From Candidatus Latescibacterota bacterium (GTDB lineage: Bacteria > Latescibacterota > UBA2968 > UBA8231), in assembly GCA_965204725.1 (NCBI GenBank), contig OZ242005.1, positions 5,120,001 to 5,184,000 of the forward strand: DNA of 64,000 nucleotides. The letters run 5' to 3'. The translations under genes and the position numbers were made by a program. Below, one piece after another: positions 11,852-64,000 of the stretch; position 1 is the first letter of the stretch; every line of letters begins with the position of its first letter. The notes beneath the pieces are model-generated. The model did no database searches. It saw only the letters and a list, made by a program, of their open reading frames with translations, and was not told the origin of the DNA.

Positions 11852-11880
11852 AACGCACTAAATCTAACGGGAGTATTGCC

Positions 11881-13125: not shown

Positions 13126-13154
13126 TTGCCCGCTGCACATCCGTATAGTATATT
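13126..13154 (+). promoter_or_regulatory. uvrA promoter with candidate SOS box in the spacer
   Basis: TTGCCC-N17-TATATT; spacer contains CTGCACATCCGTATAG, similar in sequence and position to a motif in the recA promoter. Confidence 0.5.
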
Positions 13155-13193
13155 CTTTGTTTCCGTTCTCCTCCCCTCGCGCTACACGAAGCC

Positions 13194-18859
<5,666 letters not shown>

Positions 18860-18863
<4 letters not shown>

Positions 18864-50383: not shown

Positions 50384-52354
50384 ATGGATTTGCCAAAAGA
50401 GCCTACCTTTCCCGCCCCCGGACGAGCCGAACCAGTCTTTACCACCAAAGCACTGGTGGGGGGCACCCTAGGGTCGCTGTGCATCGCCGTGGGTGCCCCT
50501 TACGGCAACATGGTCATCCGCGGCTCGTACATGTCCATTGATTTCAGCGCGGCGGGTGCCTTGTTCCTCTTCTTCGTGCTGACGGGCTTGTTCAACGCCT
50601 TGCTGGCTCGCTTCGCCGCTCCGGTGGCCTTTGGGCGCGGCGAGCTCATCGTCGCGTACATCATGATGCTCACGGCCTCGGCCATCCCCACGATGGGCCT
50701 TAGCGAGTACTGGCTGACGATCATCACCGGCGCCCAGTACTACGCCACCCCGGAAAACGAGTGGGCCTTGCTCATCCTACCGCACCTTCCCGACTGGATC
50801 GCGCCGCAGGATCCCGAGTCGATCAAGTGGTTTTACGAAGGGGCGCCGCGCACCGCGGGCGTACCTTGGGCGGTCTGGAGCGTCCCGCTGTGCTATTGGG
50901 CCGTGCTGATCGTGGCGCTGTACTTGGTCATGATCTCGTCTATGGTCATTTTGCGCCGCCAATGGGTGGAGCGGGAGCGGCTGGTCTATCCGCTGGTGCA
51001 AGTGCCCTTGGCCATGGTGCAGAGCGGCAGCCGAGGGCAGGCCCTAGGGCCTTTCTTCAAAAACCCGATCATGTGGATCGGATTTGCCCTGCCCGTGTTC
51101 GTCAGCAGCCTCAACGCCCTACACGCGTACTTCAACTTCGTCCCCGCCATCCAGCTCGTCGCCTCGGTGCCAATCCTACGCAACACCGTCAGCCTGATCT
51201 TCCGCTTGAGCTTTCCCATGGTGGGGTTCGCCTATCTCATCAACCTCGACATCGCCTTCAGCCTGTGGTTTTTCAACACCATCGCCAAGCTGATTCGAGG
51301 AGGGCTGGGGGTTTTAGGGGTCGGCAGCACCGAAAAGCTGGGCATTTACGGCGCGCCCAGCGAGCCTATTCTCGCCCACCACGGGCAGGGGGCGATGATC
51401 GTCTTGGTGCTGTTCGGCCTGTGGGTTGGCCGCGAGCACCTGCGCGACGTGCTGCGCAAGGCCCTCAAGGGCGACGACCGTATTGACGACCGCGGCGAGA
51501 TGCTCTCCTATCGGGCAGCGGTCTTAACTTGGCTCGGGGGGGTCGCGGTGATGACAATCTGGCTGTGGCAGTCCGGCTTGCCGCTGTGGGCGTCCTTTTT
51601 GACCCTGATGCTGGCCATTCTTATTTTCGTCGGCTTGACCCGCGTGGTGGTAGAGGGGGGCGTGGCCGCGGCGGTCGGGCCGATGATTTCGTCGTCGGCC
51701 TTGGTCTCGGCCGTAGGCTCTTCGGCGCTTGGCCCGGCGGGTATGGTGGGCCTTGCGTACACTTATGTATGGGCGGCGGATATCCGCACGTTTGTCATGG
51801 CTTCCTGCGCCCACGGACTCAAGCTGGGCGAGGAGTTGGGGCCGCGGCTGCGCCCGCTTTTTTGGTACATGTTGCTGGCGATTTTTGTCAGCATCGTCGG
51901 CTCGGTCGCAGCCATTTTATACCTCGCCTACGAATACGGCGGCATCAACCTCAACGGGTGGTTTTTTGGTGGTGGAACTCGCGCCCCTTTTGATTATATT
52001 ACCACCAAGTTGAGCGCGCCCACCGAGCCGAATATAGACGGCTGGATTCACACGGTGGTCGGCGGGGGCATCATGGCCCTGCTCATGTGGGCGCGGCACC
52101 AGCTTTTGTGGTGGCCGCTGCATCCCATTGGCTATCCCATTGGGGCCGTGTGGCTGATGGATCAGTTGTGGTTTAGCATTGCCCTTGCTTGGCTCTTAAA
52201 GTTAGCGGCCATGAAATACGGCGGTCCCAGCCTTTTTCGCCGGGCGCGCCCCTTCTTTTTAGGACTAATCGTAGGTCAGTTTTTTATCGCCGGGCTCTGG
52301 TTGATTATCGACTTTTTTACAGGCATGACCGACAATGTGGTCTTCTGGATCTGA
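50384..52354 (+). CDS. DUF6785/DUF6784-like polytopic membrane protein (OPT-like transporter candidate)
   Basis: Many TM helices; LRRQWVERERLVYPL, WWPLHPIGY, WLLKL...KYGG......PFFLGLIVG. Confidence 0.75.
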   Translation: MDLPKEPTFPAPGRAEPVFTTKALVGGTLGSLCIAVGAPYGNMVIRGSYMSIDFSAAGALFLFFVLTGLFNALLARFAAPVAFGRGELIVAYIMMLTASAIPTMGLSEYWLTIITGAQYYATPENEWALLILPHLPDWIAPQDPESIKWFYEGAPRTAGVPWAVWSVPLCYWAVLIVALYLVMISSMVILRRQWVERERLVYPLVQVPLAMVQSGSRGQALGPFFKNPIMWIGFALPVFVSSLNALHAYFNFVPAIQLVASVPILRNTVSLIFRLSFPMVGFAYLINLDIAFSLWFFNTIAKLIRGGLGVLGVGSTEKLGIYGAPSEPILAHHGQGAMIVLVLFGLWVGREHLRDVLRKALKGDDRIDDRGEMLSYRAAVLTWLGGVAVMTIWLWQSGLPLWASFLTLMLAILIFVGLTRVVVEGGVAAAVGPMISSSALVSAVGSSALGPAGMVGLAYTYVWAADIRTFVMASCAHGLKLGEELGPRLRPLFWYMLLAIFVSIVGSVAAILYLAYEYGGINLNGWFFGGGTRAPFDYITTKLSAPTEPNIDGWIHTVVGGGIMALLMWARHQLLWWPLHPIGYPIGAVWLMDQLWFSIALAWLLKLAAMKYGGPSLFRRARPFFLGLIVGQFFIAGLWLIIDFFTGMTDNVVFWI

Positions 52355-52371
52355 GAAAGGCACGTACAGCT

Positions 52372-55300
52372 ATGCCTAAGTTCGCGGTGAGGTGGATGGC
52401 CCTCGGCTGGGTTTTGGCCAGCGCGGCCCCGGCTTGGACCGAGGTCGATTTCGCCGAATTGGCGCATACGACTCCGGTCGAGCGCGTACAGCAGACGATG
52501 GACACTTTTGCTGGCTTGGGGTCTAGAGTGGCTGGCTATCGAGGCGCCGATCAAGCAGCCCAGATCGTGCAGGAGCGCTTCCGCGCAATCGGCCTCGACG
52601 ACATTGCAGTCCACGAATACGATGTGTCGATTCCCGTCGATAAGGGCGGGTTTCTGCAAGTCGTTGGCAGCGACGAACAAGTGCCCATTCACGGCCTCTG
52701 GCCCAACCTCGTCAAGACCTCGACGTTGCCCGAGGGTGGGGTGACCCAGCGCTTGATCGACGCCGGCGCCGGCGAGTACGCAGACATGGACGGCCAACAA
52801 GTCGAAGGGGCCGTGGCCCTGATGGACTTCAACTCGGATGACGCTTGGCTCAATGCCGCGTACCTCGGGGCGCAGGCCATCCTCTTTATCGAGCCGGATT
52901 CCACCGTGTACTTGGAGGGCGAAAAGAAGTTCCTGACCATGCCGCTCGACCTGCCGAGGTTTTGGGTCAATCGCCAAGCTGGTCAGCGCTTGCGCCGCCA
53001 GTTGGCCACCGAGGGCGAGCAAACTCTGCACCTAGAGTACCGCATGGATTGGGAGCGGCGTCCCGCTTGGAACATTCTCGGCTCGATCCCCGGGTACGAT
53101 CCCCTAATGAAAGAGGACGTCATCGTGCTGGAGGCGTACTACGACGCCATGTCGGTCGTGCCGGCCCTCGCCCCGGGTGCCGAGCAGGCCTCCAGCATTA
53201 CGGCGCTGTTGGAACTAGCGCGCTATTTCCGCGCCAACCCGCCGGCGCGCACAATCGTCTTTCTCGCCACCTCGGCCCACCACTTGGGCTTGCGCGGGGT
53301 CGATGATTTCATTCAGCGCTATTTGCGTAAAGAAGATCCCTTTATCGAACACATGCTGGTCAGGCGGGTCGTCGATGCGGCCCTCGCCCAGGACCTGATC
53401 GCCCAAGACGGCATTCACTACGCCATCGGCGAGGACCAATTCACCGGCAAGGAAGCCCTCGTGCGGGGCGTTGCCGAAGGGCGCACCGACTTGGCCGTGC
53501 GCGTTGCCGACGCCGCTCTCGCCGAAGGGCTGCTGGCCCAAGCGGAAGCCACTCCGAGCAGTTCAAGCTGGTGGAAAAAAACAATAGCATGGCTCAGGGG
53601 GCTGCTGAGCCGCGAAGAAGGCGTCCTGCACCTTGCCGACAAGCAATTCAAAGACCGCCGCGAACTGATCGCTCAGCTCGACGCGGACGATGACTTGCGC
53701 TTGGCCCTGTACAAGCGCTGGGCCGATCCCAAAATCGATTCGCTCGCGGTCAAGCTCTTTATCAGCCTCGACCTTTCGTCCCAGACCGACGAGCTCGGGG
53801 TGTGGAACAGCAATACCAGCTTTTACTACAAGCGCTACTTCGCGCCCTTCGGCAAGAACTTTATGGGATATGCGCGCACGATCAGCCGCGAGTTGGGCTA
53901 CCAGCAGCGCGACGTGCTGGTCAATGGCATCAGCCCCGAAGGCGGCATGAGTTGGCAGACCTTTGTACCCGGCGAAATATCGGTCAACAGCGAATTGGTG
54001 TTGGCCACCGGTACGCCGGCGTTGGCCTTTGTCACGGTCAACGACGCCCGCTTCCTCGTCGATACGCCCTTAGACCGCGCCGAGCGCGTCAACCACGCCA
54101 ATCTCGCCAAACAGATCCGAGTCCTCGCCGGCATGTTCGAGATGGCCTTTGAAGACCCCGAGCTTTTCCCAGACTTCAAGATGCGCCTGCGCGACAATCT
54201 GCGCTCGCTCCGCGGCCGCACCATGGTCTTTCCGCGCCGCAGCATCATCCCCGACCTGCCGCGCGCCGACGCCGTGGCCGTGGTGCGCAACGGCAAGAAA
54301 AAGTCGTATAAGGGTGTGCGCGGCGAGTACTATGAAGTCGTCGACGACAAGGGGGCCTTTTTCGTAAATCGGGTGCGGGTCAACAACGTCCAGATCGAGG
54401 GCTACTACATGGACCCGATCACCGGCCGCATCACCTACGCTCCAGACCGCGGCGTGCAAGGCGACGAGAGCTACCCCATGAAGGTCGCCATGGACTGGCG
54501 CGACAAGCAGTGGATGGTCATCCTCTTCCCCTGTGTGCCCTACAACTTCTTCGACATCGTCGATCCGCGCTATCTCACCAAGCTGTCCAACGTGGAGGTC
54601 TTCGACGAGACGAACAGCGCCCCAGTAGAATACGGTTATACCATTGGCGAAGGCCCCTCGGCCCAAAACGAGCCGGTCGGCGTGCTCTTTGCGCGGCCCG
54701 GCTCGCGCATCAAGATGGGATTCGGGGCCGGCCTGCTGGGGTTCCGCTCGCTCCTGCTCAACGCCACCAGCGTAACCGACAAGGAAAAGGCCGAGGGCGA
54801 GGGCTTTGAGATCCGCCCCGGGACTTCCTTTGCCCGCACGACCTTCCAAGCCGCCCAAGACATGTGGAACCTCGACGAGTCGCGGATGCGCGAGCTGCGG
54901 AGCTTTGCCATTGAAAACCAGCGCCTCAACGACCTTCACTATCGGGCCGAGACCGAGTTGGACCAAGCGGCCGCGGCCGGCACCGAGCAGCGCTGGGGCG
55001 ATTTTGTGCGCCACACCCGTGCGGCCTTCGGCTTAGAGTCGCGCGCCTACCCCGACGTCAAATCCACCCAAAACGACGTCATTCAGGGCATCATCTTCTT
55101 CATGGCCCTCGTCATTCCCTGCGCCTTTTTTACCGAGCGGCTCCTGTTTACGGCCGCCACCATTCGCAACCAGATCATCGGGTTTGTCGGGGTTTTTATC
55201 GCGATTTGGAGCGTGTTGTGGATGGTGCATCCGGCCTTTCAGTTGTCCAACCCCTTCGTCATTCTGCTCGCTTTCGTCATCATCGCGCTGGCCGTCCTCG

Positions 55301-57195
55301 TGATGTCGATCATCTCCGGCCGCTTCAACGAGCAGATGAAGAAGCTGCGCACCGAGGTGGCCGTGATCCACGACACGGATGTCAGCCGCTCTTCGGCCTC
55401 GCTCACGGCTTTTCAGCTTGGGATTTCCAATATGAAGCGGCGCAAGACGCGCACGGTCCTCACCTTTACCACGCTCTTGCTGCTGACCTTTACGGTCCTC
55501 TCCTTCACCTCCATCCGCACCGGCCTGCGGTTCAATCAAATCAGCCGCGACAACGAGGGCCTCTACGAGGGCATCCTAATCCGCAGCAAGGCGTGGAATC
55601 CCATGGAGGATTCCGTCCTCGAATACGCGCGCAGCAATTTCGGCGATCGGGCTGCGGTCGCGCCGCGCAGTTGGTACAGCAATAAGGCCAAAGCGCACAT
55701 CAAGATAAAACACGGAGAAAACGCCCATAACGCCCTCGGCGTCTTGGGCCTGACCCCGGAGGAAACCGAGGTCACCGGGCTGGACCAAGCCCTCGTCGCC
55801 GGGCGGTGGTTTGCGCCGGGCGAGGACAAGGTCTGCATCCTGCCCATCGACATGGTCAAGGAGGCCCATCTCGACGTCGATCTGGCCGATGTCGGCCAAG
55901 CGCAGGTCCGCATCTTCGGCGACTTGTTCACGGTGGTTGGCGTCCTCGACTCCAAGCGGATGAAGGACCTCAAAGACCTCGACGACGAAATCCTGACGCC
56001 GGCTGACTTTGCCGTCACCGGCGGCCAAGCCGTGCAGGAAATCGCCGAGGAGGAAAAGCGCGAGAAGCAGGGCTTGGAGGACGCCAAAGTCGTCATCAAG
56101 CCCTTTGTCCATCTGGAGCCAGCCAACATCCTCATCGTGCCCTACCACACGCTGCGCAACGTCGGCAGCGGCAACCCCTTACAGTCTGTGGCCGTGCGCT
56201 TTCCCGCCGGCAGCGACGTGCGCGGTGAGGTCGAGGAATTTCTCTCGCGCCTCGCGGTGACCCTGTTTGCTGGCATCAAGGAGCCGGGCGACGAATACAT
56301 CAAGGTGGCGATTTACTCTTCGCTGGGGCTGACCTCCTTTTCCGGGATGAGCAACTTGTTCATCCCCATGCTGATCGCTTCGCTCATCGTGCTCAATACC
56401 ATGATGGGCAGCGTGTACGAGCGCTTCCGCGAGATTGGCATCTACTCTTCAGTCGGCCTCGCGCCCGGCCATATCTCTTGGCTGTTTATCGCCGAGAGTT
56501 GCGTCTATTCGGTATTGGGCGTCGTCGCTGGTTATCTCAGCGGCCAAGTAATCGCCAAGGTGCTCATTGAGTCCGACCTGCTCGGAGGCTTCACGCTCAA
56601 CTACTCTTCTGTGGCTGCGGTGCTGTCCTGTATGCTGGTGATGGCCGTGGTCATGCTCTCGACGATTTATCCCGCCCGCAAGGCTTCGCAAATGGCCGTG
56701 CCGGACGTGACCCGCAAGTGGAAGCTGCCGCCGCCCGATGGCGACCAGTGGGATTTCGAGTTCCCCTTTACGGTGAGCGGCCACGAAGTCTTGGGCTTGA
56801 GCGTATTCCTCATCGGCTACTTCGATTCCTACAGCGAAGAGTCCATCGGCACCTTCTACACCGACGGTGCTCAGCTGCGCCGCGAAGAGACGCCCAACGG
56901 CGAAGGGTATCTCATCGACATGAATATCTGGCTGGCTCCGTTCGACTTGGGCGTCAGCCAACACGTCACCGTGCGGGCCATGCCCGAGGACGAGCACAAC
57001 ATCTACTCCGTCGGCCTGCAAATCAAGCGACTCAGCGGCGAGGATGCCTCGTGGCGTCGGGTCAACCAACGCTTTATGAACGTCATCCGCAAACAGTTCC
57101 TTATCTGGCGCACGGTGGATGCCGAGGCCAAGGAGAGCTACCGCCAACAGGGCGCGGAAATTCTGCAAGGGCTGCGTAGCGAAGTGTCGGCGTAG
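52372..57195 (+). CDS. Large fusion: signal peptide, PA/M28 peptidase-like ectodomain, TM bundle, MacB/FtsX-type permease
   Basis: GSRVAGYRG, LEAYYD, APGAEQASS..ALLELA; LGISNMKRRKTRT; SVYERFREIGIYSSVGLAP; IYPARKA. Confidence 0.8.
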   Translation: MPKFAVRWMALGWVLASAAPAWTEVDFAELAHTTPVERVQQTMDTFAGLGSRVAGYRGADQAAQIVQERFRAIGLDDIAVHEYDVSIPVDKGGFLQVVGSDEQVPIHGLWPNLVKTSTLPEGGVTQRLIDAGAGEYADMDGQQVEGAVALMDFNSDDAWLNAAYLGAQAILFIEPDSTVYLEGEKKFLTMPLDLPRFWVNRQAGQRLRRQLATEGEQTLHLEYRMDWERRPAWNILGSIPGYDPLMKEDVIVLEAYYDAMSVVPALAPGAEQASSITALLELARYFRANPPARTIVFLATSAHHLGLRGVDDFIQRYLRKEDPFIEHMLVRRVVDAALAQDLIAQDGIHYAIGEDQFTGKEALVRGVAEGRTDLAVRVADAALAEGLLAQAEATPSSSSWWKKTIAWLRGLLSREEGVLHLADKQFKDRRELIAQLDADDDLRLALYKRWADPKIDSLAVKLFISLDLSSQTDELGVWNSNTSFYYKRYFAPFGKNFMGYARTISRELGYQQRDVLVNGISPEGGMSWQTFVPGEISVNSELVLATGTPALAFVTVNDARFLVDTPLDRAERVNHANLAKQIRVLAGMFEMAFEDPELFPDFKMRLRDNLRSLRGRTMVFPRRSIIPDLPRADAVAVVRNGKKKSYKGVRGEYYEVVDDKGAFFVNRVRVNNVQIEGYYMDPITGRITYAPDRGVQGDESYPMKVAMDWRDKQWMVILFPCVPYNFFDIVDPRYLTKLSNVEVFDETNSAPVEYGYTIGEGPSAQNEPVGVLFARPGSRIKMGFGAGLLGFRSLLLNATSVTDKEKAEGEGFEIRPGTSFARTTFQAAQDMWNLDESRMRELRSFAIENQRLNDLHYRAETELDQAAAAGTEQRWGDFVRHTRAAFGLESRAYPDVKSTQNDVIQGIIFFMALVIPCAFFTERLLFTAATIRNQIIGFVGVFIAIWSVLWMVHPAFQLSNPFVILLAFVIIALAVLVMSIISGRFNEQMKKLRTEVAVIHDTDVSRSSASLTAFQLGISNMKRRKTRTVLTFTTLLLLTFTVLSFTSIRTGLRFNQISRDNEGLYEGILIRSKAWNPMEDSVLEYARSNFGDRAAVAPRSWYSNKAKAHIKIKHGENAHNALGVLGLTPEETEVTGLDQALVAGRWFAPGEDKVCILPIDMVKEAHLDVDLADVGQAQVRIFGDLFTVVGVLDSKRMKDLKDLDDEILTPADFAVTGGQAVQEIAEEEKREKQGLEDAKVVIKPFVHLEPANILIVPYHTLRNVGSGNPLQSVAVRFPAGSDVRGEVEEFLSRLAVTLFAGIKEPGDEYIKVAIYSSLGLTSFSGMSNLFIPMLIASLIVLNTMMGSVYERFREIGIYSSVGLAPGHISWLFIAESCVYSVLGVVAGYLSGQVIAKVLIESDLLGGFTLNYSSVAAVLSCMLVMAVVMLSTIYPARKASQMAVPDVTRKWKLPPPDGDQWDFEFPFTVSGHEVLGLSVFLIGYFDSYSEESIGTFYTDGAQLRREETPNGEGYLIDMNIWLAPFDLGVSQHVTVRAMPEDEHNIYSVGLQIKRLSGEDASWRRVNQRFMNVIRKQFLIWRTVDAEAKESYRQQGAEILQGLRSEVSA

Positions 57196-57211
57196 GTGCG
57201 GTCTAAGAGGC

Positions 57212-57265
57212 GTCATTCCCGCGAACGGACGTCACCCCGTGCCCCGACACGGGGCGGGAATCCAG
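57212..57265. repeat. REP-like palindromic element with a second hairpin nested in its loop
   Basis: GTCATTCCCGCG...GCGGGAATCCAG enclosing GTCACCCCGTG-CCCCGA-CACGGGG. Confidence 0.6.
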
Positions 57266-57565
57266 CCGGTATCGTTTAGACTCAAAGGACGCCCACCAGA
57301 GTTTGCAGACCGCTTCTAAGTAGAAGTTTCCCGTCTCGACCGGCGGCTCGGCGGTAGCGGGTTTGCCTATTCTTTCCAGATCAACGACCAGATGACAGCC
57401 GTCGTGTGGTTCGTTCTGCTCCTTCTTTTTTACTCAAACATAACAAGCGTACCGAGGGGGATGTGGGCGCGTCGTCGGAGGCGTATCGGCCGGTTCGGGG
57501 GATGAGGATTGGCAACTGCGGGCAACGGCTCGCTACCTGCTCTTAGGGAGCGTGGAGGACACAAA

Positions 57566-58408
57566 ATGTGGACGTATCGAGTGGGCATCATTGCGTTGTT
57601 CGTCCTATTGCGGATGGGCGATGCGGATGCGGATGCGGAGCCAGCAGAAATCACGATTCACATCCGTGGACAGTACAAGGCGGAGATTTCGGCTCTGTTG
57701 TTGGCGGCTGATGGGGGGACGACGAGGACTGGGATCGCCGAGTTGGATTCCCTTGCTGCCACATACCGCCTGATGGGGATAGATCATAAGTCTGGCTTTT
57801 ATGGGTATCGGTTTCGGCTGACGTTTCCACCGGGTGCGGATGGGGCCGCCATGGCCGGAGCCTATAGGAACCTATCCTATATACAATCGGTTGAATCGGT
57901 TAGCTCCTTGACGGTGAACGAGAGACACCGCCCTTTCCTTTTGTTTGACATAGAAGACAGGGGACTCCGGTTGCTCGCAAAGGTGGGTGCTGGGACTGTT
58001 TCGGGGCTCGCTCTTACAGCCTTGTCCATACCTTTTCAGGACGGGATAGTTGAGCCATCTGGCGACCCTGACACTGACGCTTGGAGAGGATTAGAATTTC
58101 TTTTAATTGGCACAGCCATCGGCTGTAGTGTCGGATTCCCGTTGGGTGTGAGCTTAGTCGATCCTTATGATTCTTTACCCAAGACTCTACTCGCCGGTGT
58201 TATACCGGGAGCGGTCGGCTTTTCCACCTTGTTACTAAATCAAGAGGCCGCGGGCATAGCGTTCTTGTCTATGTACGTCGTCCCTGTTATTAGTTCACCT
58301 ATTATGTCTGAACTATCGCGCCAGCCTCCTCAAGCCCGCCGCGTCTCCTTCGCTTTATCCCCCACCCTCAACGGCGGCCTCTCCGCCGTAGCCCAACTTC
58401 GCTTTTGA
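57566..58408 (+). CDS. Array paralog 1 (type A C-module), secreted/membrane protein
   Basis: SD GGAGG; signal peptide; EITIHI...TGIAELDSLAA core; ends SPTLNGGLSAVAQLRF. Confidence 0.75.
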   Translation: MWTYRVGIIALFVLLRMGDADADAEPAEITIHIRGQYKAEISALLLAADGGTTRTGIAELDSLAATYRLMGIDHKSGFYGYRFRLTFPPGADGAAMAGAYRNLSYIQSVESVSSLTVNERHRPFLLFDIEDRGLRLLAKVGAGTVSGLALTALSIPFQDGIVEPSGDPDTDAWRGLEFLLIGTAIGCSVGFPLGVSLVDPYDSLPKTLLAGVIPGAVGFSTLLLNQEAAGIAFLSMYVVPVISSPIMSELSRQPPQARRVSFALSPTLNGGLSAVAQLRF

Positions 58409-58435
58409 CCTTGCAACAAGAGAAAGGCTCGCCTC

Positions 58436-59296
58436 ATGTCCCCTATGATCGCTGTACTTACCCTGTTCGCCGCTTTCATGGCAGCGGAGGCCGATGCGAG
58501 AACAGAGCCAGCAGAAATCACGATTCACATTCGCGGCGAGCACAAAGCGGTGATTTCGGCTCTGTTGGCGGCAGTTGACGAGGGGACGACGAGGACCGGG
58601 ATCGCCGAATTGGATTCCCTTGCTGCCACCTACGGCCTGATGGGGATAGAGCGCAAAGGTAGGTCTAGTTTTTATGGGTATCGTTTTCGGCTGACGTTTT
58701 CGCCGGGTGCGGATGGGGCCGCCATTGCCGGAGCATATTGGACCTTAGCCTATATACAATCGGTCGAGCCGGATCCACCACCCGGAGCGAGAGCCCAGAA
58801 GCTGGTCCAGCCGACTCCTACTCTCGGTAATTCCCTAAATAATAGGGCTATTACGCGGATTCCCAAAAAGATAGGCGTAGGTGCGCTGACGACAGTCGGG
58901 GTAGGAATCGCATTATTGCCAGGGGCAGGGACAGCGGGAGATGATGGTATTGGTGCAGGACTTGCCGGGATTACATCACTATTTCTTGGATACCCTCTTG
59001 GCGTGTACTTGGCCGATAGGAAAGAGAGTTCATTCTGGCTGACATTCCTCGGTAGCGGTTTAGGATGGTGGGGGGGTGTTAAAATGTTAGATTCGCCAAA
59101 TTCTAGCACGTTATCAGAGTGGGCTGCTTTGATAACTATACTTGGGGCACCAGTGCTTGCATCGGAGCTATCGCGGAAGGACGCCGTAACAGGAGGCCCC
59201 AAGCGACCCAAGCAATCTCAAGACCTACGGTTTTCTCTCGGTTTGGTGCCGGAGTTCCAAGGAGGCTTGTCGGCTGTCGCCACGCTGCGCTTTTAA
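58436..59296 (+). CDS. Array paralog 2 (type B C-module)
   Basis: Same core; ends PEFQGGLSAVATLRF. Confidence 0.78.
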   Translation: MSPMIAVLTLFAAFMAAEADARTEPAEITIHIRGEHKAVISALLAAVDEGTTRTGIAELDSLAATYGLMGIERKGRSSFYGYRFRLTFSPGADGAAIAGAYWTLAYIQSVEPDPPPGARAQKLVQPTPTLGNSLNNRAITRIPKKIGVGALTTVGVGIALLPGAGTAGDDGIGAGLAGITSLFLGYPLGVYLADRKESSFWLTFLGSGLGWWGGVKMLDSPNSSTLSEWAALITILGAPVLASELSRKDAVTGGPKRPKQSQDLRFSLGLVPEFQGGLSAVATLRF

Positions 59297-59500
59297 TCCC
59301 TCAATGACGGGAGGATACGCTTTATGCCGCTTATGATCGTTGCTACCCTGTTCGCCATACTCATGGTAGAGGAGGCCGAGGCAGAGACGAAGCCAGCAGA
59401 AATCACGATCCACATCCGTGGAGAGCACAAGGCGGTGATTTCGGCTCTGTTGGCGGCGGTTGACGAGGGGACGACGAGGACCGGGATCGCCGAGTTGGAT
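59142..59500 (+). repeat. ~360-bp direct repeat spanning the gene 2/3 junction (second copy about 60021-60379)
   Basis: Near-identical over about 225 bp (3' end of gene, intergenic, signal peptide), still highly similar into the core domain; offset 879 bp. Confidence 0.9.
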
Positions 59501-60175
59501 TCCTTGGCGGCCATCTATGGCCTGAGGGATATATCACAAGTCCCTTTTTTTAGGTATCGGTTTCGGCTGACGTTTCCGCCGGATGCGGATGGGGCCGCCA
59601 TGGCCGGAGCATATTGGAACTTAGCCTATATACAATCGGTCGAGCCGGATCCACCACCCGAGGCATGGGAGACATCCTCTCAAAGACCGGCAGGTCAAGA
59701 GACTACAAGTACGACGGCAGTGAAAAAACAAGGCTCTAGCTTTTTGAGAGGCTCTTTAAGAGTGGTAAAAAAGGTGGCCTCCGGTACGATAGTTGGGATC
59801 GTATTCTCTGGGATCGTACTCGGAGGGTCGAGATCTGCAGGGGGAGATTCTGGTATTGGTGCCGCGGCGGCCGGGTATGCCGCCTTCGGTCTCGGATACC
59901 CTATTGGCGTGTACGCAGTCGATGCGAGAGAGAGTTCGTTCTGGCTTACACTCATAGGTGGCGGTTTAGGATGGTGGGGGGCTGCTACATTATCAGAGCG
60001 GGCCGCTTGGGTGACTTTTTTTGGGGCACCAGTGCTTGCATCGGAGCTATCGCGGAAGGACGCCGTAACAGGAGGCCCCAAGCAACCCAAGCAATCTCAA
60101 GACCTACGGTTTTCTCTCGGTTTGGTGCCGGAGTTCCAAGGAGGCTTGTCGGCTGTCGCCACGCTGCGCTTTTAA
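59324..60175 (+). CDS. Array paralog 3 (type B C-module)
   Basis: SD GGGAGG; same core; C-terminus nearly identical to paralog 2. Confidence 0.78.
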   Translation: MPLMIVATLFAILMVEEAEAETKPAEITIHIRGEHKAVISALLAAVDEGTTRTGIAELDSLAAIYGLRDISQVPFFRYRFRLTFPPDADGAAMAGAYWNLAYIQSVEPDPPPEAWETSSQRPAGQETTSTTAVKKQGSSFLRGSLRVVKKVASGTIVGIVFSGIVLGGSRSAGGDSGIGAAAAGYAAFGLGYPIGVYAVDARESSFWLTLIGGGLGWWGAATLSERAAWVTFFGAPVLASELSRKDAVTGGPKQPKQSQDLRFSLGLVPEFQGGLSAVATLRF

Positions 60176-60202
60176 TCCCTCAATGACGGGAGGATACGCT
60201 TT

Positions 60203-61033
60203 ATGCCGCTTATGATCGTTGCTACCCTGTTCGCCATACTCATGGTAAAGGAGGCCGATGCAGAGACGAAGCCAGCAGAAATCACGATCCACATTCGCGG
60301 CGAACACAAAGCGGTGATTTCGGCTCTGTTGGCGGCTGTTGACGAGGAGACGACGAGGACCGGGATCGCCGAATTGGATTCTGTTGCTGCCACCTACGGC
60401 CTGATGGGGATAGATCGCAAGGGTCGATCCTCTGGCTTTTATGGGTATCGGTTTCAACTGACGTTTCCGCCGGATTCGGATAGGGCCGCCATTGCCGGAG
60501 CCTATTGGACCTTACCCTATATACAATCGACTGACCCGGAGCCACCCCCCGAGGCGCGAGCCCGGAAGATGCACCGTCCTTTTAACATAGAAAACAGGGG
60601 ACTACGGTTGCTCGCAAAGGTGGCCGCTGGAACTGGTTTGGGGATCGTTGTTACAGCCATGACCTTGGATATTCAGGCCGCGATACATGAGCCATCTGGC
60701 AACATTGACTTATTAAACTCTCTTGTAACGGGCACAGCCATCGGCTGGAGTGTCGGCTTCCCGTTGGGTGTGAGCTTAGTCGATCCTTATGATGCTTTAC
60801 CCAAGACTCTACTCGCCGGTGTTATACCGGGAGCGGTCGGCTTTTCCTACTTGTTACTAAATCAAGACAACGCGGGCATAGAAGCGTTCTTTTTTCTGTA
60901 CGTCGCCCCTTCTATTGGTTCATTGATCGTGTCAGAGAAGTCGCGCCAGCCTCCTCAAGCCCGTCGCGTCTCCTTCGCTTTATCCCCCACCCTCAACGGC
61001 GGCTTCTCCGCTGTAGCCCAACTTCGCTTTTGA
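60203..61033 (+). CDS. Array paralog 4 (type A C-module)
   Basis: N-terminus nearly identical to paralog 3; C-terminal half most similar to paralog 1. Confidence 0.78.
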   Translation: MPLMIVATLFAILMVKEADAETKPAEITIHIRGEHKAVISALLAAVDEETTRTGIAELDSVAATYGLMGIDRKGRSSGFYGYRFQLTFPPDSDRAAIAGAYWTLPYIQSTDPEPPPEARARKMHRPFNIENRGLRLLAKVAAGTGLGIVVTAMTLDIQAAIHEPSGNIDLLNSLVTGTAIGWSVGFPLGVSLVDPYDALPKTLLAGVIPGAVGFSYLLLNQDNAGIEAFFFLYVAPSIGSLIVSEKSRQPPQARRVSFALSPTLNGGFSAVAQLRF

Positions 61034-61075
61034 CCCTGCACTGAGAGAAAGGCTTGAAACAGAAAGGACTGTGAC

Positions 61076-61750
61076 ATGGGCTTTATTTTGCTGGTCTTAT
61101 GGCTACTGCTCGCCCTTTGGGAGCCGGTGGCGGCTCGGACGATTCGGGTATCAGAAAAGGAATCAGAACACGGGGAACTGGCCTTATATATGGCCCTGTT
61201 AGAGGCGGCTCCTCACGATACGCTGCTCGTCGCCGCCGGGTATTACGAAGGGGTTGGTATTGACAAACCCCTGACGCTCATTGGGGCCGGAGCCGATAGC
61301 ACAATAGTGGCAGGTCCCTATACGGCAATCGGGATAGGAGCCGAAGGGGTAACTATTGAAGGATTTTATGTACAGGGCTTTGGGAAATGCCGTCTGACGA
61401 GTGCTATTTATTGTAATAACTGTTCCGCAACGCTCAAGCACAACATTCTCGAAGGATGTTACTCGGTGATTACTACCGATGGTAATGCTCGACTAACCGT
61501 CAACTACAACCACCTAATAGCAGGAACCTTCGCCTTTGACATTTTCCCCTCGGACGATCCGAGTGCTATTGACGCTCGCTTCAACTGGTGGGAGACGACG
61601 GTTGAACAGGAGATACAGGCCAAGATATCCGCGACGATGGACGAGGTGGTGTATCGGCCTTGGCTGCAAGGTCCCGAGGAAATCTTCCGTGATCTTCCTA
61701 CCTTTATATCCCCGATCAGTTGGGGTCGGTTGAAACAGAAAGGACGATGA
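61076..61750 (+). CDS. Secreted right-handed beta-helix (pectin lyase-like) protein
   Basis: Signal peptide; A...DTLLVAAGYY...IDKPLTLIGAG, VTIEGF, IDARFNWW, V.YRPWL; C-terminal PTFISPISWGRLK. Confidence 0.7.
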   Translation: MGFILLVLWLLLALWEPVAARTIRVSEKESEHGELALYMALLEAAPHDTLLVAAGYYEGVGIDKPLTLIGAGADSTIVAGPYTAIGIGAEGVTIEGFYVQGFGKCRLTSAIYCNNCSATLKHNILEGCYSVITTDGNARLTVNYNHLIAGTFAFDIFPSDDPSAIDARFNWWETTVEQEIQAKISATMDEVVYRPWLQGPEEIFRDLPTFISPISWGRLKQKGR

Positions 61751-61751
61751 C

Positions 61752-63101
61752 ATGCGCTTTATCTTGCTACTCTTTCTGTTGGGAGTTGGCTCTGCGGCTG
61801 GCGACGCCAGCGAGCCGGTTCCCTCGCCGCCCTACTGGACGGGTCGGATCGAACAGGACACGACGTGGCGCGACACGGTATATGTCGGCGGCGACGTGAC
61901 GATTGCAGCAGCGGCGACCCTGACGCTGGCTCCCAATACGCAGGTTCTCTTTCTGCCCTACCACGATGCGACCCGAAGCGGCTTGGACTCGACCCGTGCG
62001 GAACTGACCGTCGAAGGGCGGCTGGCGGCGCAAGCAGGCGGCATCGTCTTTCGTTCAGCGGATGCGGGTTCGTTGGGAGCCGATTGGCATGGCCTTGTCG
62101 TCGAGCGAGGTGGGCGAGCGGACGTATCCAACGCTGCGATACGCGATGGCTTGCGCTGTCTGTATGCCAAGCGGGGTGGGCGCGTCAGGATGGACGCTAT
62201 CGCCTTTGCCAACTGCGGCAAGCCGACCGCACCAGCGGATGCGGCCAAGCTGGCGACGCCGGCGGGAACATGGCGAAAAGAAGAGCTTGGGCTGTTCCAT
62301 CCACGCGAAACAAAAATCACACCCCCGATGAACCAACCATTCGAGAGACAAGAGATCACGATTCATATCAGTGGAGAGCACAAGGCGGTGATTTCGGCTT
62401 TGTCGGCGGCTGTTGACGAGGAGACGACGGTTACGGGGATCGCCGAGTTGGATTCTCTTGCTGCCATCTATGGCCTGATGGGGATATATCGTACGGGTCG
62501 ATCCTCTAACGTTGATGATGGGTCTCGGTTTCGGCTGACGTTTCCGCCGGGTGCGGAGGTGGCCGCCATTGCCGAAGCCTATTTGAACCTATCTTATATA
62601 CAATCGGTAGGGAACGAGAGGCACCGCCCTTTTGACATAGAAAACAGGGGACTACGATTACTCACAAAGGTGGCCGCTGGGACTGCTTCGGGGGCCGCTC
62701 TTACAGCCATGACCACGAGTGCTCTGGGCGCAATAGATGAACCATCTGACGACCATAACAATAATCCTTATGGAGGATTAGACTTTTTCATATTTGGCGC
62801 AGCCATCGGCAGTACGGTCGGATTCCCAATTGGTGTGAGCTTAGTTGATCCTTACGATTCTTTCGTCGCGACACTCATGGGCGGTGTTATGACTGGAGGG
62901 GGTGGTTTAGCCTTGGTAGGAGCTGGGAGGGGCTCATGGCTCTCGGTTATAGGGGGAGCGGTGGCCTTATGCGGCCCTTTTATTGGTTCACTCAGTGCGT
63001 CAGAGAAGTCGCGCCAGCCTCCTCAAGACCGCCGGATCTCCTTCGCTTTATCCCCGACCCTCAACGGCGGCCTCTCCGCCGTTACCACGTTGCGCTTTTG
63101 A
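61752..63101 (+). CDS. Array paralog 5: beta-helix cap module fused to core and type A C-module
   Basis: G.IEQDTTW...VGGDVTI...ATLTL.P module, then EITIHISGEHK core; ends SPTLNGGLSAVTTLRF. Confidence 0.78.
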   Translation: MRFILLLFLLGVGSAAGDASEPVPSPPYWTGRIEQDTTWRDTVYVGGDVTIAAAATLTLAPNTQVLFLPYHDATRSGLDSTRAELTVEGRLAAQAGGIVFRSADAGSLGADWHGLVVERGGRADVSNAAIRDGLRCLYAKRGGRVRMDAIAFANCGKPTAPADAAKLATPAGTWRKEELGLFHPRETKITPPMNQPFERQEITIHISGEHKAVISALSAAVDEETTVTGIAELDSLAAIYGLMGIYRTGRSSNVDDGSRFRLTFPPGAEVAAIAEAYLNLSYIQSVGNERHRPFDIENRGLRLLTKVAAGTASGAALTAMTTSALGAIDEPSDDHNNNPYGGLDFFIFGAAIGSTVGFPIGVSLVDPYDSFVATLMGGVMTGGGGLALVGAGRGSWLSVIGGAVALCGPFIGSLSASEKSRQPPQDRRISFALSPTLNGGLSAVTTLRF

Positions 63102-63130
63102 CCCTGCAACAAGAAGAAAGGCCCCGCCCC

Positions 63131-63175
63131 ATGTTCCTTCGGCTCTGTCGGCGGCGGTTGACGCGGAGACGATAG
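63131..63175 (+). pseudogene. Relic of a further array paralog
   Basis: Follows the same intergenic sequence as the gene 1/2 junction; ATGTTCC then TTCGGCTCTGTCGGCGGCGGTTGACGCGGAGACGA, matching the SAL(L/S)AAVD..T core. Confidence 0.65.
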
Positions 63176-63178
63176 GTG

Positions 63179-63202
63179 GCCCTTTGCCGGAGGGCTTTTT
63201 TT
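63179..63202 (+). terminator. Intrinsic terminator
   Basis: GCCCT-N7-AGGGC followed by T7. Confidence 0.65.
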
Positions 63203-63266
63203 AGCATATTAAGGAGCATGGTGCGGCTCCTGCTTATACCACTGTCCAGCTTGGGAGGCGTCAAAA

Positions 63267-63809
63267 ATGGACTGGAATAATCCTCTTATCTACATAGTTC
63301 CCGGACTAGCTGTCCTTGGATGGATCATCCGTTTGGAAAGATGGATGGGTAAGAAAGACGAGTCTATACGCCTCATAGAAGAGAATATCGTGAAATTAGA
63401 AGCAGCTATCCGTGAAATAAGGACGGATATTAAGGAATTGTTCAGAAATGGCCCTGGGGCGGTTACTGCACAAAATAGCCCGCTCCGCTTAACTGAGCGG
63501 GGAGAGGCTATCTCTGAGGTGTTGGGAGCAAAGGCGTGGGCAACGCGGACGGCGCAGGACGTATCACCTAAGCTGAAGGGGAGCCACCCCTATGATATTC
63601 AAATGTTCTGTATGGACTACGTGGACCAAACTTCCAATTTTACCCGCGAGTTTATTGACCAGATTAAGACGTACTCGTATGAGAAAGCTGTGCCGATGAG
63701 CCAAATTAAGGACGTGATGGCGGTAGAATTGCGCGATGCGATCCTGACAGCTATTGCCCGATTAAAGCCGGATGAAGCGTCAGCGTCCCGCCGATATGAA
63801 CCAACTTAG
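63267..63809 (+). CDS. Hypothetical protein with N-terminal TM, coiled coil and SPLRLT..G motif
   Basis: SD GGGAGG; lower GC than the core genes. Confidence 0.7.
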   Translation: MDWNNPLIYIVPGLAVLGWIIRLERWMGKKDESIRLIEENIVKLEAAIREIRTDIKELFRNGPGAVTAQNSPLRLTERGEAISEVLGAKAWATRTAQDVSPKLKGSHPYDIQMFCMDYVDQTSNFTREFIDQIKTYSYEKAVPMSQIKDVMAVELRDAILTAIARLKPDEASASRRYEPT

Positions 63810-63824
63810 GTAAAATCCCCTACC

Positions 63825-64000
63825 ATGATACCCCATAGGCTGCCTATCATCGTCTGGTTCGTCTTGGTCTTGCTGGCGGGTCGTGCGGTAGATGGGAAGG
63901 CAGAGACGCTGCCGAGAAATACGGCTCAAGCCATCGACCATACCTACGACACGCGCCTGTACTGGATGGGTCAGATCGAGCAGGACACGACGTGGCGCGA
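63825..64000 (+). CDS. Partial secreted protein beginning with the same beta-helix cap module as paralog 5
   Basis: MIPHRLPIIVWFVLVLLAG...YWMGQIEQDTTWR; DNA matches about 61833-61873. Confidence 0.7.
   Translation, partial: MIPHRLPIIVWFVLVLLAGRAVDGKAETLPRNTAQAIDHTYDTRLYWMGQIEQDTTWR

What the first reader, a model, noticed from the sequence alone, without database searches (positions are those of the whole stretch)
57566..64000. Tandem, mosaic array of modular surface proteins: candidate recombination-diversified system
Seen: five intact paralogs, one relic, and a related gene cut by the window edge, all co-oriented and tightly spaced. Each paralog has a signal peptide, a ~80-aa conserved core (EITIHIxGEHKAVISALxAAVD..T.TGIAELDSLAA.YGL.GI...RFRLTFPP..D.AA.A.AY..L.YIQS), a variable linker, a variable Gly-rich hydrophobic region and a conserved C-terminal ...GG.SAV..LRF. 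Two C-module types occur (A in genes 1, 4, 5; B in genes 2, 3). Gene 4 pairs the gene-3 N-terminus with a gene-1-like C-half, and gene 5 has gained a beta-helix cap. I do not recognise the family. Inference: an expanding, module-swapping locus for variable envelope proteins (adhesin, receptor or protease-inhibitor repertoire), diversified by homologous recombination rather than a dedicated recombinase.
Basis: partly seen in the sequence, partly recalled or inferred. Interest (0 to 1): 0.82.

Follow-up and report, generated by a model that had tools for sequence, protein, structure and literature searches.

The report
Mosaic tandem array of membrane-anchored proteins
A row of related genes in an uncultured Latescibacteria-like bacterium encodes exported proteins that share an undescribed four-helix membrane tail, and the genes have repeatedly exchanged pieces by ordinary recombination; what the proteins do is still unknown.

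Summary
Five intact co-oriented paralogs, a short relic and an edge-cut seventh member lie at 57566-64000.

Each paralog has four parts:
- a signal-peptide-like start;
- a ~90-aa ferredoxin-like domain, distantly tied to subtilase prodomains (PF22148) through remote homologs only;
- a variable linker;
- a ~150-aa C-terminal module, modelled by AlphaFold2 as four glycine-zipper helices plus a beta-hairpin ending in LRF.

The module has no Pfam, NCBIfam or PDB match. Among 261 homologs, 77 carry it without the N-domain.

Recombination is well supported:
- a 163-nt exact repeat spans two gene junctions;
- dS is 0.2-0.45 in the core but saturated between the two C-module types;
- PHI p=5e-4;
- the core tree rejects the C-module split, AU p=5e-9;
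- relatives in other assemblies are different mosaics of the same five genes.

Not supported: surface location, "expanding", and selection for diversity (dN/dS about 1, not significant). Function and target membrane remain inferred. This is a new protein family showing a known evolutionary pattern.

The parts
57566..58408 (+). g1: paralog with type-A C-module (280 aa). Signal-peptide-like start, core at about 57635-57901, C-module from about residue 125.
   Evidence: core HMM 1.4e-27; C-module HMM 1.3e-60; GGAGG before the ATG
58436..59296 (+). g2: paralog with type-B C-module (286 aa). The C-module (58826-59293) was modelled.
   Evidence: AlphaFold2 pLDDT 85.7, four helices plus hairpin
59324..60175 (+). 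g3: paralog with type-B C-module (283 aa). Its 5' end equals that of g4 and its 3' end equals that of g2.
   Evidence: 97% identical counterpart P0015
60203..61033 (+). g4: paralog with type-A C-module (276 aa). g3-like start, g1-like C half.
   Evidence: 99% identical counterpart P0001
59206..59368 (+). Exact 163-nt tract, repeated at 60085-60247. It covers the last 91 nt of g2 (or g3), the 27-nt spacer and the first 45 nt of g3 (or g4). It lies within a 300-nt repeat of 96% identity (59108-59407 = 59987-60286).
   Evidence: (family D4)
61076..61750 (+). Interposed 224-aa secreted beta-helix-like protein, not a family member. Its ribosome-binding site and signal-peptide start resemble those of g5.
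   Evidence: NCBIfam NosD family 8.9e-12, 44 bits, far below the 300-bit cut-off; no cap, core or C-module HMM hit; 45-nt repeat D9 at 87%
61752..63101 (+). g5: long-form paralog (449 aa). Beta-rich cap at about residues 20-195, core 62343-62621, type-A C-module 62637-63098.
63102..63177 (+). Relic: family-type spacer, an ATG and ~40 nt of core with a ~113-nt internal deletion.
   Evidence: (35-nt hits, 89-91%)
63178..63206 (+). Terminator-like hairpin plus T-run, the likely end of the g1-g5 transcription unit.
   Evidence: consensus scan only; 7 sites found against 6.5 expected
63825..64000 (+). g6: start of a further long-form member, cut by the window edge.
   Evidence: D10, 93% to the g5 cap; cap HMM E=2e-4

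Best explanation
SHOWN.
- The locus is a tightly spaced, probably co-transcribed tandem array: g1-g4, an unrelated beta-helix gene, g5, a relic and a terminator, with a further member downstream.
- It belongs to an undescribed modular protein family. The one locus with a record title is a Latescibacteria MAG; one homolog is labelled Gemmatimonadota.
- Each window protein has four parts. First, a hydrophobic N-terminal signal-peptide-like segment followed by an acidic stretch. Second, a ~90-aa ferredoxin-like alpha/beta domain. Third, a variable, often Pro-rich linker. Fourth, a ~150-aa C-terminal module modelled with high confidence as four Gly-rich helices (GxxxGxxxG), a conserved basic hinge (SE.SRKPPQ.RR) and a beta-hairpin that ends the protein in LRF.
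- The C-module is an independent domain. It always sits at the very C-terminus, and it also occurs behind other passengers or behind little more than a signal peptide.
- The array evolves by homologous recombination between neighbours (unequal crossing-over and gene conversion). The core, the tail and the gene junctions are kept alike. The two C-module types are ancient. Closely related assemblies carry different mosaics of the same five genes.

INFERRED.
- The N-terminal segment exports the protein through Sec, so the N-domain lies outside the cytoplasm.
- The four helices embed the protein in a membrane. My estimate is cytoplasmic membrane 0.45, outer membrane 0.35, other 0.2.
- The N-domain, as a relative of subtilase prodomains, is a binding module, possibly a tethered inhibitor or chaperone of S8 proteases (about 0.3).
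- Because many relatives are nearly C-module only, the module probably has a role of its own in the membrane, such as organising lipid or protein or forming an oligomer, beyond anchoring.
- Recombination yields a strain-variable repertoire. Whether that variation is selected is not shown.

The confidence given (0.6) is for the whole statement: about 0.85 for the anatomy and the recombination, and about 0.3-0.45 for the functional inferences.
For: Anatomy: ORFs and spacing; alignment.

Structure:
- g5 model: core residues 200-290 are beta-alpha-alpha-beta-beta-alpha-beta at pLDDT about 90. Helices 299-328, 341-365, 371-391 and 396-419 have pLDDT 93-98. The hairpin 430-446 has pLDDT 64-76.
- Type-B module alone: pLDDT 85.7, pTM 0.70, same four helices plus hairpin.
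- Foldseek matches the core to ferredoxin-like ACT/IlvN/S6 domains (probability up to 1.00, TM to target about 0.55).

Family:
- 269 homologs at E<=1e-3 among 8000 scored candidates, none named and none with a Pfam domain.
- The exhaustive search of 50% representatives gave 355 at E<=1e-3 and 220 at <=1e-10, many matching only profile positions ~107-280.
- Of 261 fetched homologs, 147 have both domains, 77 the C-module only, 24 the core only and 13 neither at 80% HMM coverage. The C-module match ends on the last residue in 213 of 224. GxxxGxxxG occurs in 209 of 224. In 28 of the 77 C-module-only proteins, 60 or fewer residues precede the module.
- 216 of 261 end in F and 180 end in LRF.
- Other passengers include LRR and Ig/cadherin-like domains.

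Prodomain link: remote core homologs P0229, P0247 and P0248 (profile E of 6e-20 to 1e-16) score 31.8, 40.2 and 25.5 bits on PF22148 (cut-off 21). P0229 and P0248 end in T9SS sorting domains instead of the C-module.

Recombination:
- 163-nt exact junction repeat.
- Core dS 0.19-0.45 for all 10 pairs, against 1.1-3.0 (or not computable, i.e. saturated) between A and B C-modules. dS is 0 for g3-g4 at the start and for g2-g3 in the tail.
- PHI p=5e-4, the floor of 2000 permutations, for all five genes and for g1-g4. Pair-specific runs have p<=4e-4 in 4 of 6 pairs.
- The A/B label changes 11 times on the core tree and once on the C-module tree. The AU test rejects a type-B clade for the core data (delta lnL 207.7, p=5.1e-9).
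- Painting of 39 close homologs shows mosaics such as P0002 (g3 start, g4 C-module), P0010 (g2, then g1, then g4), P0014 (g2 start, g3 rest) and P0017-19 (g1/g3 core, g1 helices 1-2, g5 helices 3-4).

Not an assembly artefact of this contig: P0005, P0015 and P0001 are 96, 97 and 99% identical over the full length to g1, g3 and g4.
Against: Membrane embedding is a model, not a measurement.

The charge pattern contradicts a standard cytoplasmic-membrane topology with an exported N-domain. Family-wide, the start of helix 1 carries net +2.5 and the post-helix-4 hinge +3.0; both are on the passenger side. Loops 1 and 3 on the other side are net -2.5 and -0.5. The positive-inside rule (recalled) would place the positive flanks in the cytoplasm.

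The helices are only moderately hydrophobic: mean Kyte-Doolittle 1.0-1.3 and 9-21% Gly.

An invariant free C-terminal Phe has no obvious role in a cytoplasmic-membrane anchor.

The prodomain link fails directly:
- 0 of 150 family members match PF22148 at E<=0.01.
- The window proteins have no Pfam hit at E<=1.
- A core profile finds no subtilase in the PDB.
- No S8 protease gene is in the window.

No signal-peptide predictor was available.

The homologs used for the mosaic painting come from metagenome assemblies, often on short contigs. Repeated paralogs can be mis-joined there.

dN/dS in the helices (0.8-2.2) is never significantly above 1 (p=0.11-1.0), so selection for diversity is not shown.
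Confidence: 0.6

Rival explanations
1. The C-module is a new kind of C-terminal outer-membrane anchor or sorting domain. The glycine-zipper helices pass through Sec because they are only marginally hydrophobic. They then insert into the outer membrane from the periplasm, as glycine-zipper lipoproteins do. The terminal hairpin ending in Phe acts as a beta-signal for BAM or docks on an outer-membrane protein. In this reading the array is a true envelope or surface repertoire.
For: - The terminal F is invariant in full-length members (216 of 261 end in F).
- The module ends exactly at the protein end in 213 of 224.
- The charge pattern is inverted for a cytoplasmic-membrane protein.
- Helix hydrophobicity is low and Gly content high.
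- ESM Atlas neighbours are labelled glycine-zipper or GlsB/YeaQ/YmgE (score 0.89-0.91, leads only).
- Remote core homologs use T9SS sorting domains in the same position.
- Passengers elsewhere in the family (LRR, Ig/cadherin-like, beta-helix-like) are typical of exposed proteins.
- There is precedent for transmembrane glycine-zipper outer-membrane lipoproteins: YfgH/SlyB, bioRxiv 10.64898/2025.12.22.696046 (title and start of abstract seen only).
Against: - There is no lipobox Cys in the signal peptides (sequence).
- Helices 2-4 reach a 19-residue Kyte-Doolittle mean of 1.5-1.8. That is typical of stop-transfer segments, so escape from the inner membrane is doubtful.
- The hairpin strands are only 6-8 residues long and of lower confidence.
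- No Pfam glycine-zipper model matches.
- No route across the periplasm or the outer membrane is identified.
Confidence: 0.25
2. The array is part of an interbacterial-antagonism repertoire. The glycine-zipper modules would be membrane-permeabilising toxins or multi-helix membrane immunity proteins. They would be kept in mosaic tandem arrays, as polymorphic toxin/immunity loci are.
For: - Glycine-zipper helices occur in 209 of 224 C-modules.
- The genes form tandem, recombining paralogs with dN/dS about 1 in the helices.
- Many relatives are small C-module-only proteins.
- Surface-associated glycine-zipper bacteriocins are a precedent: Cdz, PMC5380434 (title and start of abstract seen only).
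Against: - No toxin, immunity, T1SS, T6SS or CDI family was found in or next to the array.
- PADLOC gave nothing for g1.
- The proteins carry Sec-type starts and a conserved, purifying-selected N-domain and tail.
- Neighbouring genes differ in the one other locus available.
Confidence: 0.1
3. The paralogs are accessory subunits or substrates of the giant M28-peptidase/MacB-FtsX-type protein encoded just upstream (52189-57195). They would have an FtsX-like layout of a periplasmic alpha/beta domain followed by membrane helices.
For: - The upstream gene is on the same strand, 370 nt away.
- The best whole-model Foldseek hits are FtsX chains (8w6i_C, E=0.03, probability 0.57).
Against: - The Foldseek match is weak (TM 0.16-0.22, rmsd 24 A; 0 hits at E<=1e-3).
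- There is no Pfam FtsX or MacB match.
- In locus L001 the two family members sit among T9SS-type cargo, fibronectin-repeat and transposase genes, with no such transporter.
Confidence: 0.07
4. The mosaic is only apparent. It would be plain tandem duplication with uneven constraint along the gene, or a mis-assembly of repeated paralogs.
For: - Conserved regions naturally look alike.
- Metagenome assemblies can join paralogs wrongly.
- The core tree has few columns (99) and many open forks.
Against: - Synonymous divergence, not just protein identity, differs roughly tenfold between modules.
- The exact 163-nt tract includes the non-coding spacer.
- PHI and the AU tests are significant.
- The same mosaic genes recur at 96-99% identity in other assemblies.
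- The window's genes lie on a contig listed as 5,381,243 bases.
Confidence: 0.03

Closest known systems
Subtilase N-terminal prodomains (Pfam PF22148 Fervidolysin_NPro-like; inhibitor-I9-type fold, the latter recalled)
   Same: - Ferredoxin-like alpha/beta fold of about 90 aa.
- Remote homologs of the core pass the PF22148 cut-off.
- The domain ends in a ...Y[IV]..[VA]EP motif. This resembles the '...AEPNY' end of those remote homologs and, from memory, of subtilase propeptides.
   Different: - No catalytic S8 domain follows.
- The window proteins and 150 family members do not match the Pfam model themselves.
- The domain is fused to a membrane module instead.
Glycine-zipper membrane proteins (glycine zipper 2TM outer-membrane lipoproteins SlyB/YfgH; GlsB/YeaQ/YmgE small membrane proteins)
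   Same: - Gly-rich helices with GxxxGxxxG packing motifs.
- ESM Atlas nearest clusters carry these labels (lead only).
   Different: - Four helices rather than two or three.
- No lipobox.
- An added basic hinge and a terminal beta-hairpin ending in Phe.
- No HMM match to any Pfam glycine-zipper family.
Type IX secretion C-terminal sorting domains (Por_Secre_tail, CHU_C)
   Same: - A conserved domain fixed at the extreme C-terminus behind interchangeable passengers.
- It occurs in the same bacterial superphylum.
- Remote core homologs carry a T9SS domain where this family carries the C-module.
   Different: - The T9SS domain is a ~70-100-aa beta-sandwich that is cleaved off (recalled).
- This module is ~150 aa and helical.
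- It has no Pfam or NCBIfam match.
Mosaic multigene envelope families that evolve by gene conversion (for example Neisseria opa and Helicobacter bab/hop; recalled, not examined here)
   Same: - Paralogs with conserved ends and variable middles.
- Recombination tracts between copies.
- Strain-to-strain mosaics.
   Different: - No host-immunity setting.
- No phase-variable repeats or silent cassettes were seen.
- All five copies look expressible and sit in one operon-like row.
- Selection for diversity is not shown.

Membership tests
Fervidolysin_NPro-like / subtilase prodomain (PF22148) | Match to the Pfam model at or above its gathering score | tested here: not met
   The window proteins have 0 Pfam families at E<=1. 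0 of 150 family members match at E<=0.01. Only 3 remote homologs among the 38 scanned pass (31.8, 40.2 and 25.5 bits against 21).
Fervidolysin_NPro-like / subtilase prodomain (PF22148) | Ferredoxin-like beta-alpha-beta-beta-alpha-beta fold | tested here: met
   AlphaFold2 models the core as beta-alpha-alpha-beta-beta-alpha-beta at pLDDT about 90. Foldseek finds ferredoxin-like hits with probability up to 1.00. No subtilase prodomain appears among the listed hits.
Fervidolysin_NPro-like / subtilase prodomain (PF22148) | Placed in front of an S8 catalytic domain | tested here: not met
   There is no peptidase domain in any paralog. The core is followed by a linker and the membrane module.
Glycine-zipper membrane proteins (Pfam PF13488, PF13441, PF05433) | HMM match to a glycine-zipper family | tested here: not met
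   No Pfam hit. The ESM Atlas gives only feature-level leads of 0.89-0.91.
Glycine-zipper membrane proteins (Pfam PF13488, PF13441, PF05433) | GxxxGxxxG motifs within hydrophobic helices | tested here: met
   209 of 224 C-modules have the motif. Helix 2 of g1, g4 and g5 has G-x3-G-x3-G-x3-G. G357 and G361 of g5 are nearly invariant.
Type IX secretion C-terminal domain | Match to Por_Secre_tail or CHU_C models and a beta-sandwich fold | tested here: not met
   No Pfam or NCBIfam hit. The model is helical.
Outer-membrane beta-barrel protein | C-terminal aromatic residue (beta-signal) | tested here: met
   216 of 261 homologs end in F and 180 end in LRF. All five window paralogs end in LRF.
Outer-membrane beta-barrel protein | Barrel of eight or more amphipathic strands | tested here: not met
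   Only one hairpin is modelled; the rest of the module is four helices.
FtsX/MacB-type permease | FtsX or MacB_PCD domain match, or a clear structural match | tested here: inconclusive
   No Pfam match. Foldseek best hit is FtsX at E=0.03, TM 0.16-0.22, rmsd 24 A.
Programmed variation systems (silent cassettes, invertases, diversity-generating retroelements) | A dedicated recombinase or reverse transcriptase, or promoterless donor cassettes next to an expression site | tested here: not met
   None among the 32 large ORFs of the window scanned with Pfam. All five copies have their own start codon. The only fragment is the 76-nt relic. Small ORFs were not scanned.

The most novel reading that the evidence does not exclude
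The ~150-aa C-terminal module would be a previously unrecognised envelope-sorting and anchoring device of Latescibacteria-like bacteria. It would be a helical glycine-zipper anchor delivered to the outer membrane through its terminal Phe hairpin. It would be functionally parallel to the T9SS C-terminal domain and able to carry interchangeable passengers. The tandem array would then be a recombining repertoire of tethered prodomain-like binders.
Probability: 0.15. Interest if true: 0.8.

Novelty: new variant of a known kind. Interest (0 to 1): 0.55.

Why it matters
The family is invisible to current annotation. It has no Pfam, NCBIfam or PDB relative, and the one source name seen is 'hypothetical protein'. 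Yet the exhaustive search found 355 cluster representatives at E<=1e-3.

Its C-terminal module is a compact, confidently modelled domain with an invariant terminal Phe. It is reused behind many passengers.

If the module proves to be a sorting or anchoring signal, it would help in reading the envelope proteomes of uncultured FCB-group bacteria.

The array is also a clean natural example of gene conversion and unequal crossing-over re-assorting protein modules, with breakpoints that can be mapped to the nucleotide.

If it is only a membrane anchor of unknown use, the finding is a useful annotation but not a surprise.

Tried and rejected
Searches that found nothing:
- Sequence search of the PDB with the five-paralog profile. 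The single hit, at E=0.35, was to a subtilisin catalytic domain aligned to the Gly-rich region and was judged spurious.
- PDB search with a core profile that included remote members: best E=0.61.
- Foldseek against the PDB: 0 matches at E<=1e-3 for the g5 model and for the type-B C-module (best E=0.43).
- PHROGs gave nothing for g1, g5 or the beta-helix gene. PADLOC gave nothing for g1.

Weak or unusable results:
- The ESM Atlas gave only feature-level neighbours at 0.89-0.91. That is within the range the tool says random sequences sometimes reach.
- A four-copy complex prediction of the C-module returned 'no answer' (score 0.01). It is not used either way.
Source names and accessions of the NCBI-held homologs therefore stayed unseen, apart from one name.
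- The genome-contig scan returned a single locus. Gene order and copy number of the arrays holding P0001-P0041 could therefore not be checked.

Ideas considered and dropped:
- Positive selection in helix 1 and loop 1: the ratio reaches 2.16 in one pair but p=0.11.
- Kinship between the beta-helix gene and the g5 cap: the cap HMM does not hit that gene.

Literature:
- 'Latescibacteria' plus 'glycine zipper' returned 0 papers.
- Fervidolysin / prodomain / type IX secretion returned 16 papers. None of the 10 listed titles concerns this family.

Full report
1. WHAT IS THERE

One search lists a run of + strand ORFs:
- g1 57566-58408
- g2 58436-59296
- g3 59324-60175
- g4 60203-61033
- a 224-aa ORF, 61076-61750
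- g5 61752-63101
- a 180-aa ORF, 63267-63809
- an ORF running off the window, 63825-63998

Spacers are 27, 27, 27, 42 and 1 nt, and each gene has a purine-rich stretch before its ATG.

The five paralogs align over their whole common length, at 46-69% identity to g1.

After g5 comes a 76-nt relic: a family-type spacer, an ATG and about 40 nt of core with a ~113-nt gap. A hairpin and T-run follow at 63178-63206.

The edge ORF begins like the 467-479-aa long forms of the family.

HMMs of the three modules find no further copy in the other 57 kb.

2. THE PROTEINS

Database matches.
- Neither Pfam nor NCBIfam recognises any paralog at E<=1. The only rows returned are three chance-level NCBIfam hits at E=0.13-0.9, far below their cut-offs.
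- A PDB sequence search with the profile finds nothing credible.

Structure models.
- AlphaFold2 with a 150-row alignment models g5 in three parts. The N-terminal cap is poorly defined and beta-rich (pLDDT below 50). The core (200-290) is a confident beta-alpha-alpha-beta-beta-alpha-beta domain at pLDDT about 90. Four long helices follow at pLDDT 93-98, then a C-terminal hairpin at 64-76.
- The type-B C-module of g2 modelled alone gives the same four helices and hairpin (pLDDT 85.7, pTM 0.70).
- Foldseek against the PDB gives no match at E<=1e-3 for either model. The core resembles generic ferredoxin-like domains. The best whole-model hit is FtsX at E=0.03 with TM about 0.2.

Properties of the helices.
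- They are Gly-rich: 9-21% Gly and mean Kyte-Doolittle 1.0-1.3 across 150 members.
- They carry GxxxGxxxG in 209 of 224 modules.

3. THE FAMILY

Size and annotation.
- The word-indexed search gave 269 proteins at E<=1e-3 among 8000 scored candidates. None was named and none had a Pfam domain.
- The exhaustive search of 50% representatives gave 355 at E<=1e-3, 220 at <=1e-10 and 70 at <=1e-30.
- A further search with distant members gave 30 proteins. One is named 'hypothetical protein' from a MAG labelled Gemmatimonadota.

Domain architecture.
- By HMM, 147 of the 261 fetched proteins have core and C-module, 77 the C-module only, 24 the core only and 13 neither at 80% coverage. An earlier count with a six-residue regular expression gave 111 and 105; the HMM count is the better one.
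- The C-module match ends on the last residue in 213 of 224. 216 of 261 proteins end in F.
- In 28 of the 77 C-module-only proteins, at most 60 residues precede the module.
- Others carry LRR or Ig/cadherin-like passengers, or passengers with no Pfam match.

The C-module is therefore a domain in its own right, not just the variable half of these genes.

Link of the core to prodomains.
- Three remote homologs of the core (P0229, P0247, P0248) pass the Pfam cut-off for the fervidolysin N-terminal prodomain.
- P0229 and P0248 end in type IX secretion sorting domains.
- In the alignment they carry two tandem cores ending in AEPNY.
- No closer member matches that Pfam model (0 of 150).

Organism.
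- The only genome-collection locus is from a MAG titled Latescibacteria.
- RecA of the window is 83-85% identical to proteins labelled Latescibacterota, Handelsmanbacteria or Gemmatimonadetes.
- I call the organism Latescibacteria-like, with moderate confidence.

4. TOPOLOGY (inferred)

Export of the N-domain.
- 195 of 216 full-length-looking members have a hydrophobic 12-residue window in their first 41 residues.
- In the window genes this segment is followed by an acidic run and has no Cys.
- A Sec signal with the N-domain exported is therefore the natural reading. No signal-peptide predictor was available.

Arguments about which membrane.
- The positive charges of the C-module sit at the start of helix 1 (net +2.5) and after helix 4 (+3.0). 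Both are on the passenger side.
- Loops 1 and 3 on the other side are acidic.
- This is the reverse of what the positive-inside rule (recalled) predicts for a cytoplasmic-membrane protein with an exported N-domain.
- Together with the invariant terminal Phe, this keeps an outer-membrane location open.
- Against that, helices 2-4 reach 19-residue hydropathy means of 1.5-1.8, which is typical of stop-transfer segments.
- I put the cytoplasmic membrane at about 0.45 and the outer membrane at about 0.35.

5. RECOMBINATION

Within the window.
- g3 and g4 are 97-100% identical over the upstream spacer and first ~90 nt.
- g2 and g3 are 98-100% identical over the last ~190 nt.
- g1 and g4 are 96-98% identical in parts of the C half.
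- An exact 163-nt tract (59206-59368 = 60085-60247) runs from one gene's tail, through the spacer, into the next gene's start. It lies inside a 300-nt repeat of 96% identity.
- Synonymous divergence is 0.19-0.45 in the core for all ten pairs. Between type-A and type-B C-modules it is 1.1-3.0 or not computable (saturated). In the two junction tracts it is 0 (my own Nei-Gojobori script).
- A PHI test gives p=5e-4, the floor for 2000 permutations, for all five genes and for g1-g4. With three type-A genes there are no informative sites.
- Pair-specific runs of matching polymorphic sites are significant in 4 of 6 pairs. g1-g2 (p=0.09) and g1-g3 (p=0.36) are not.

Across the family.
- I built trees from 73 rows: the five window genes plus the 68 of P0001-P0070 that have both domains. 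P0009 and P0016 were dropped as identical to g2 and g5. The method was quick IQ-TREE under LG+G4.
- The C-module tree splits 16 type-B rows from 57 type-A rows at 100% support.
- On the core tree (99 columns, many open forks) the A/B label changes 11 times, against once on the C-module tree.
- The AU test rejects a type-B clade for the core data (delta lnL 207.7, p=5.1e-9). The group was defined from the C-module tree.

6. STABILITY VERSUS EXCHANGE

Stable genes. Each window paralog has a closer relative elsewhere than in the window. Over the full length, g1 is 96% identical to P0005, g3 is 97% identical to P0015, and g4 is 99% identical to P0001. The mosaic genes are therefore real and stable among close relatives, not artefacts of this assembly.

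Different mosaics. Painting 39 close homologs against g1-g5 shows the following.
- P0002: g3 start with a g4 C-module.
- P0010 and P0013: g2, then g1, then g4.
- P0014: g2 start with the rest from g3.
- P0017-19: g1/g3 core, g1 helices 1-2 and g5 helices 3-4.
- P0029: g1 start, g2 core and module, g3 tail.

Breakpoints also fall inside the C-module.

Caveat. These proteins come from metagenome assemblies, some on contigs of 1-10 kb. The contigs themselves could not be fetched, so chimeric assembly cannot be excluded for individual cases.

7. SELECTION

dN/dS values:
- 0.40-0.55 in the core for three of the four pairs tested, and 0.91 for g1-g5.
- 0.2-0.5 in the tail.
- 0.8-2.2 in the helices, never significantly above 1 (p=0.11-1.0).

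The variable part is weakly constrained. Diversifying selection is not demonstrated.

8. SURROUNDINGS

- Upstream on the same strand lie a DUF6785/DUF6784 protein and a 1668-aa fusion of an M28 peptidase with MacB/FtsX-type domains.
- The rest of the window holds housekeeping genes (recA, rho, prfA, dnaG, a relA/spoT-type gene) and a defence-gene cluster at 0.3-19 kb.
- In L001 the two family members are 8 kb apart. They sit among T9SS-type cargo, a fibronectin-repeat protein whose N-terminus matches the cap HMM, and an IS4-type transposase.
- No neighbour is conserved between the two loci.

9. VERDICT

The anatomy and the recombination are solid. The family and its C-terminal module are new to the databases searched. 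Surface location, an inhibitor role and adaptive diversification remain hypotheses.

The evolutionary pattern is a known one: a tandem family with gene conversion and module exchange. I therefore rate the finding as a new variant of a known kind, of moderate interest.

Papers were seen only as search listings with the start of the abstract.

The following are recalled, not tested:
- the beta-signal idea
- the positive-inside rule
- the inhibitor-I9 fold
- the comparison families of antigenic variation

Noticed in passing
window 277-18863: A cluster of defence-type genes. It holds a DUF3226 protein and an AAA ATPase matching the PADLOC candidate system PDC-M38 (B and A). It also holds a 1338-aa type IIG restriction-methylase/DrmMI-like protein and an HEC-01-like ATPase. 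A 1889-aa protein combines UvrA-type domains (Pfam) with matches to the PADLOC models mad3 and mad8.
   Followed up: partly
window 50384-57195: A DUF6785/DUF6784 membrane protein is followed by a 1668-aa single polypeptide. That polypeptide fuses an M28 peptidase domain with MacB periplasmic-core and FtsX permease domains. This is an unusual architecture, directly upstream of the array.
   Followed up: partly
window 61054-61098 and 61730-61774: The ribosome-binding site and first codons of the unrelated beta-helix gene are an 87% copy of those of g5. The start and signal-peptide segment therefore seems to be exchanged between different gene families as well.
   Followed up: partly
L001 10808-11950 and 19805-20380: A second secreted family (passenger beginning ...KKFSPILIL.EETG.KWGD...) shares the same signal-peptide type as the array genes. 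It sits next to both family members in the Latescibacteria MAG. Some homologs fuse this passenger to the C-module (for example P0137, P0143 and P0181).
   Followed up: no
window 63267-63809: A 180-aa ORF lies between the relic/terminator and the edge-cut member. It has an N-terminal hydrophobic segment and no significant family match; its weak GapR-like and PHROG hits are below their cut-offs.
   Followed up: partly
window 56001-64000: G+C falls to 0.55 across the array, against about 0.60-0.65 in most of the window.
   Followed up: no
L001 15449-16546: An IS4-type DDE transposase lies between the two family members of the related MAG. It is a possible contributor to rearrangement there.
   Followed up: no
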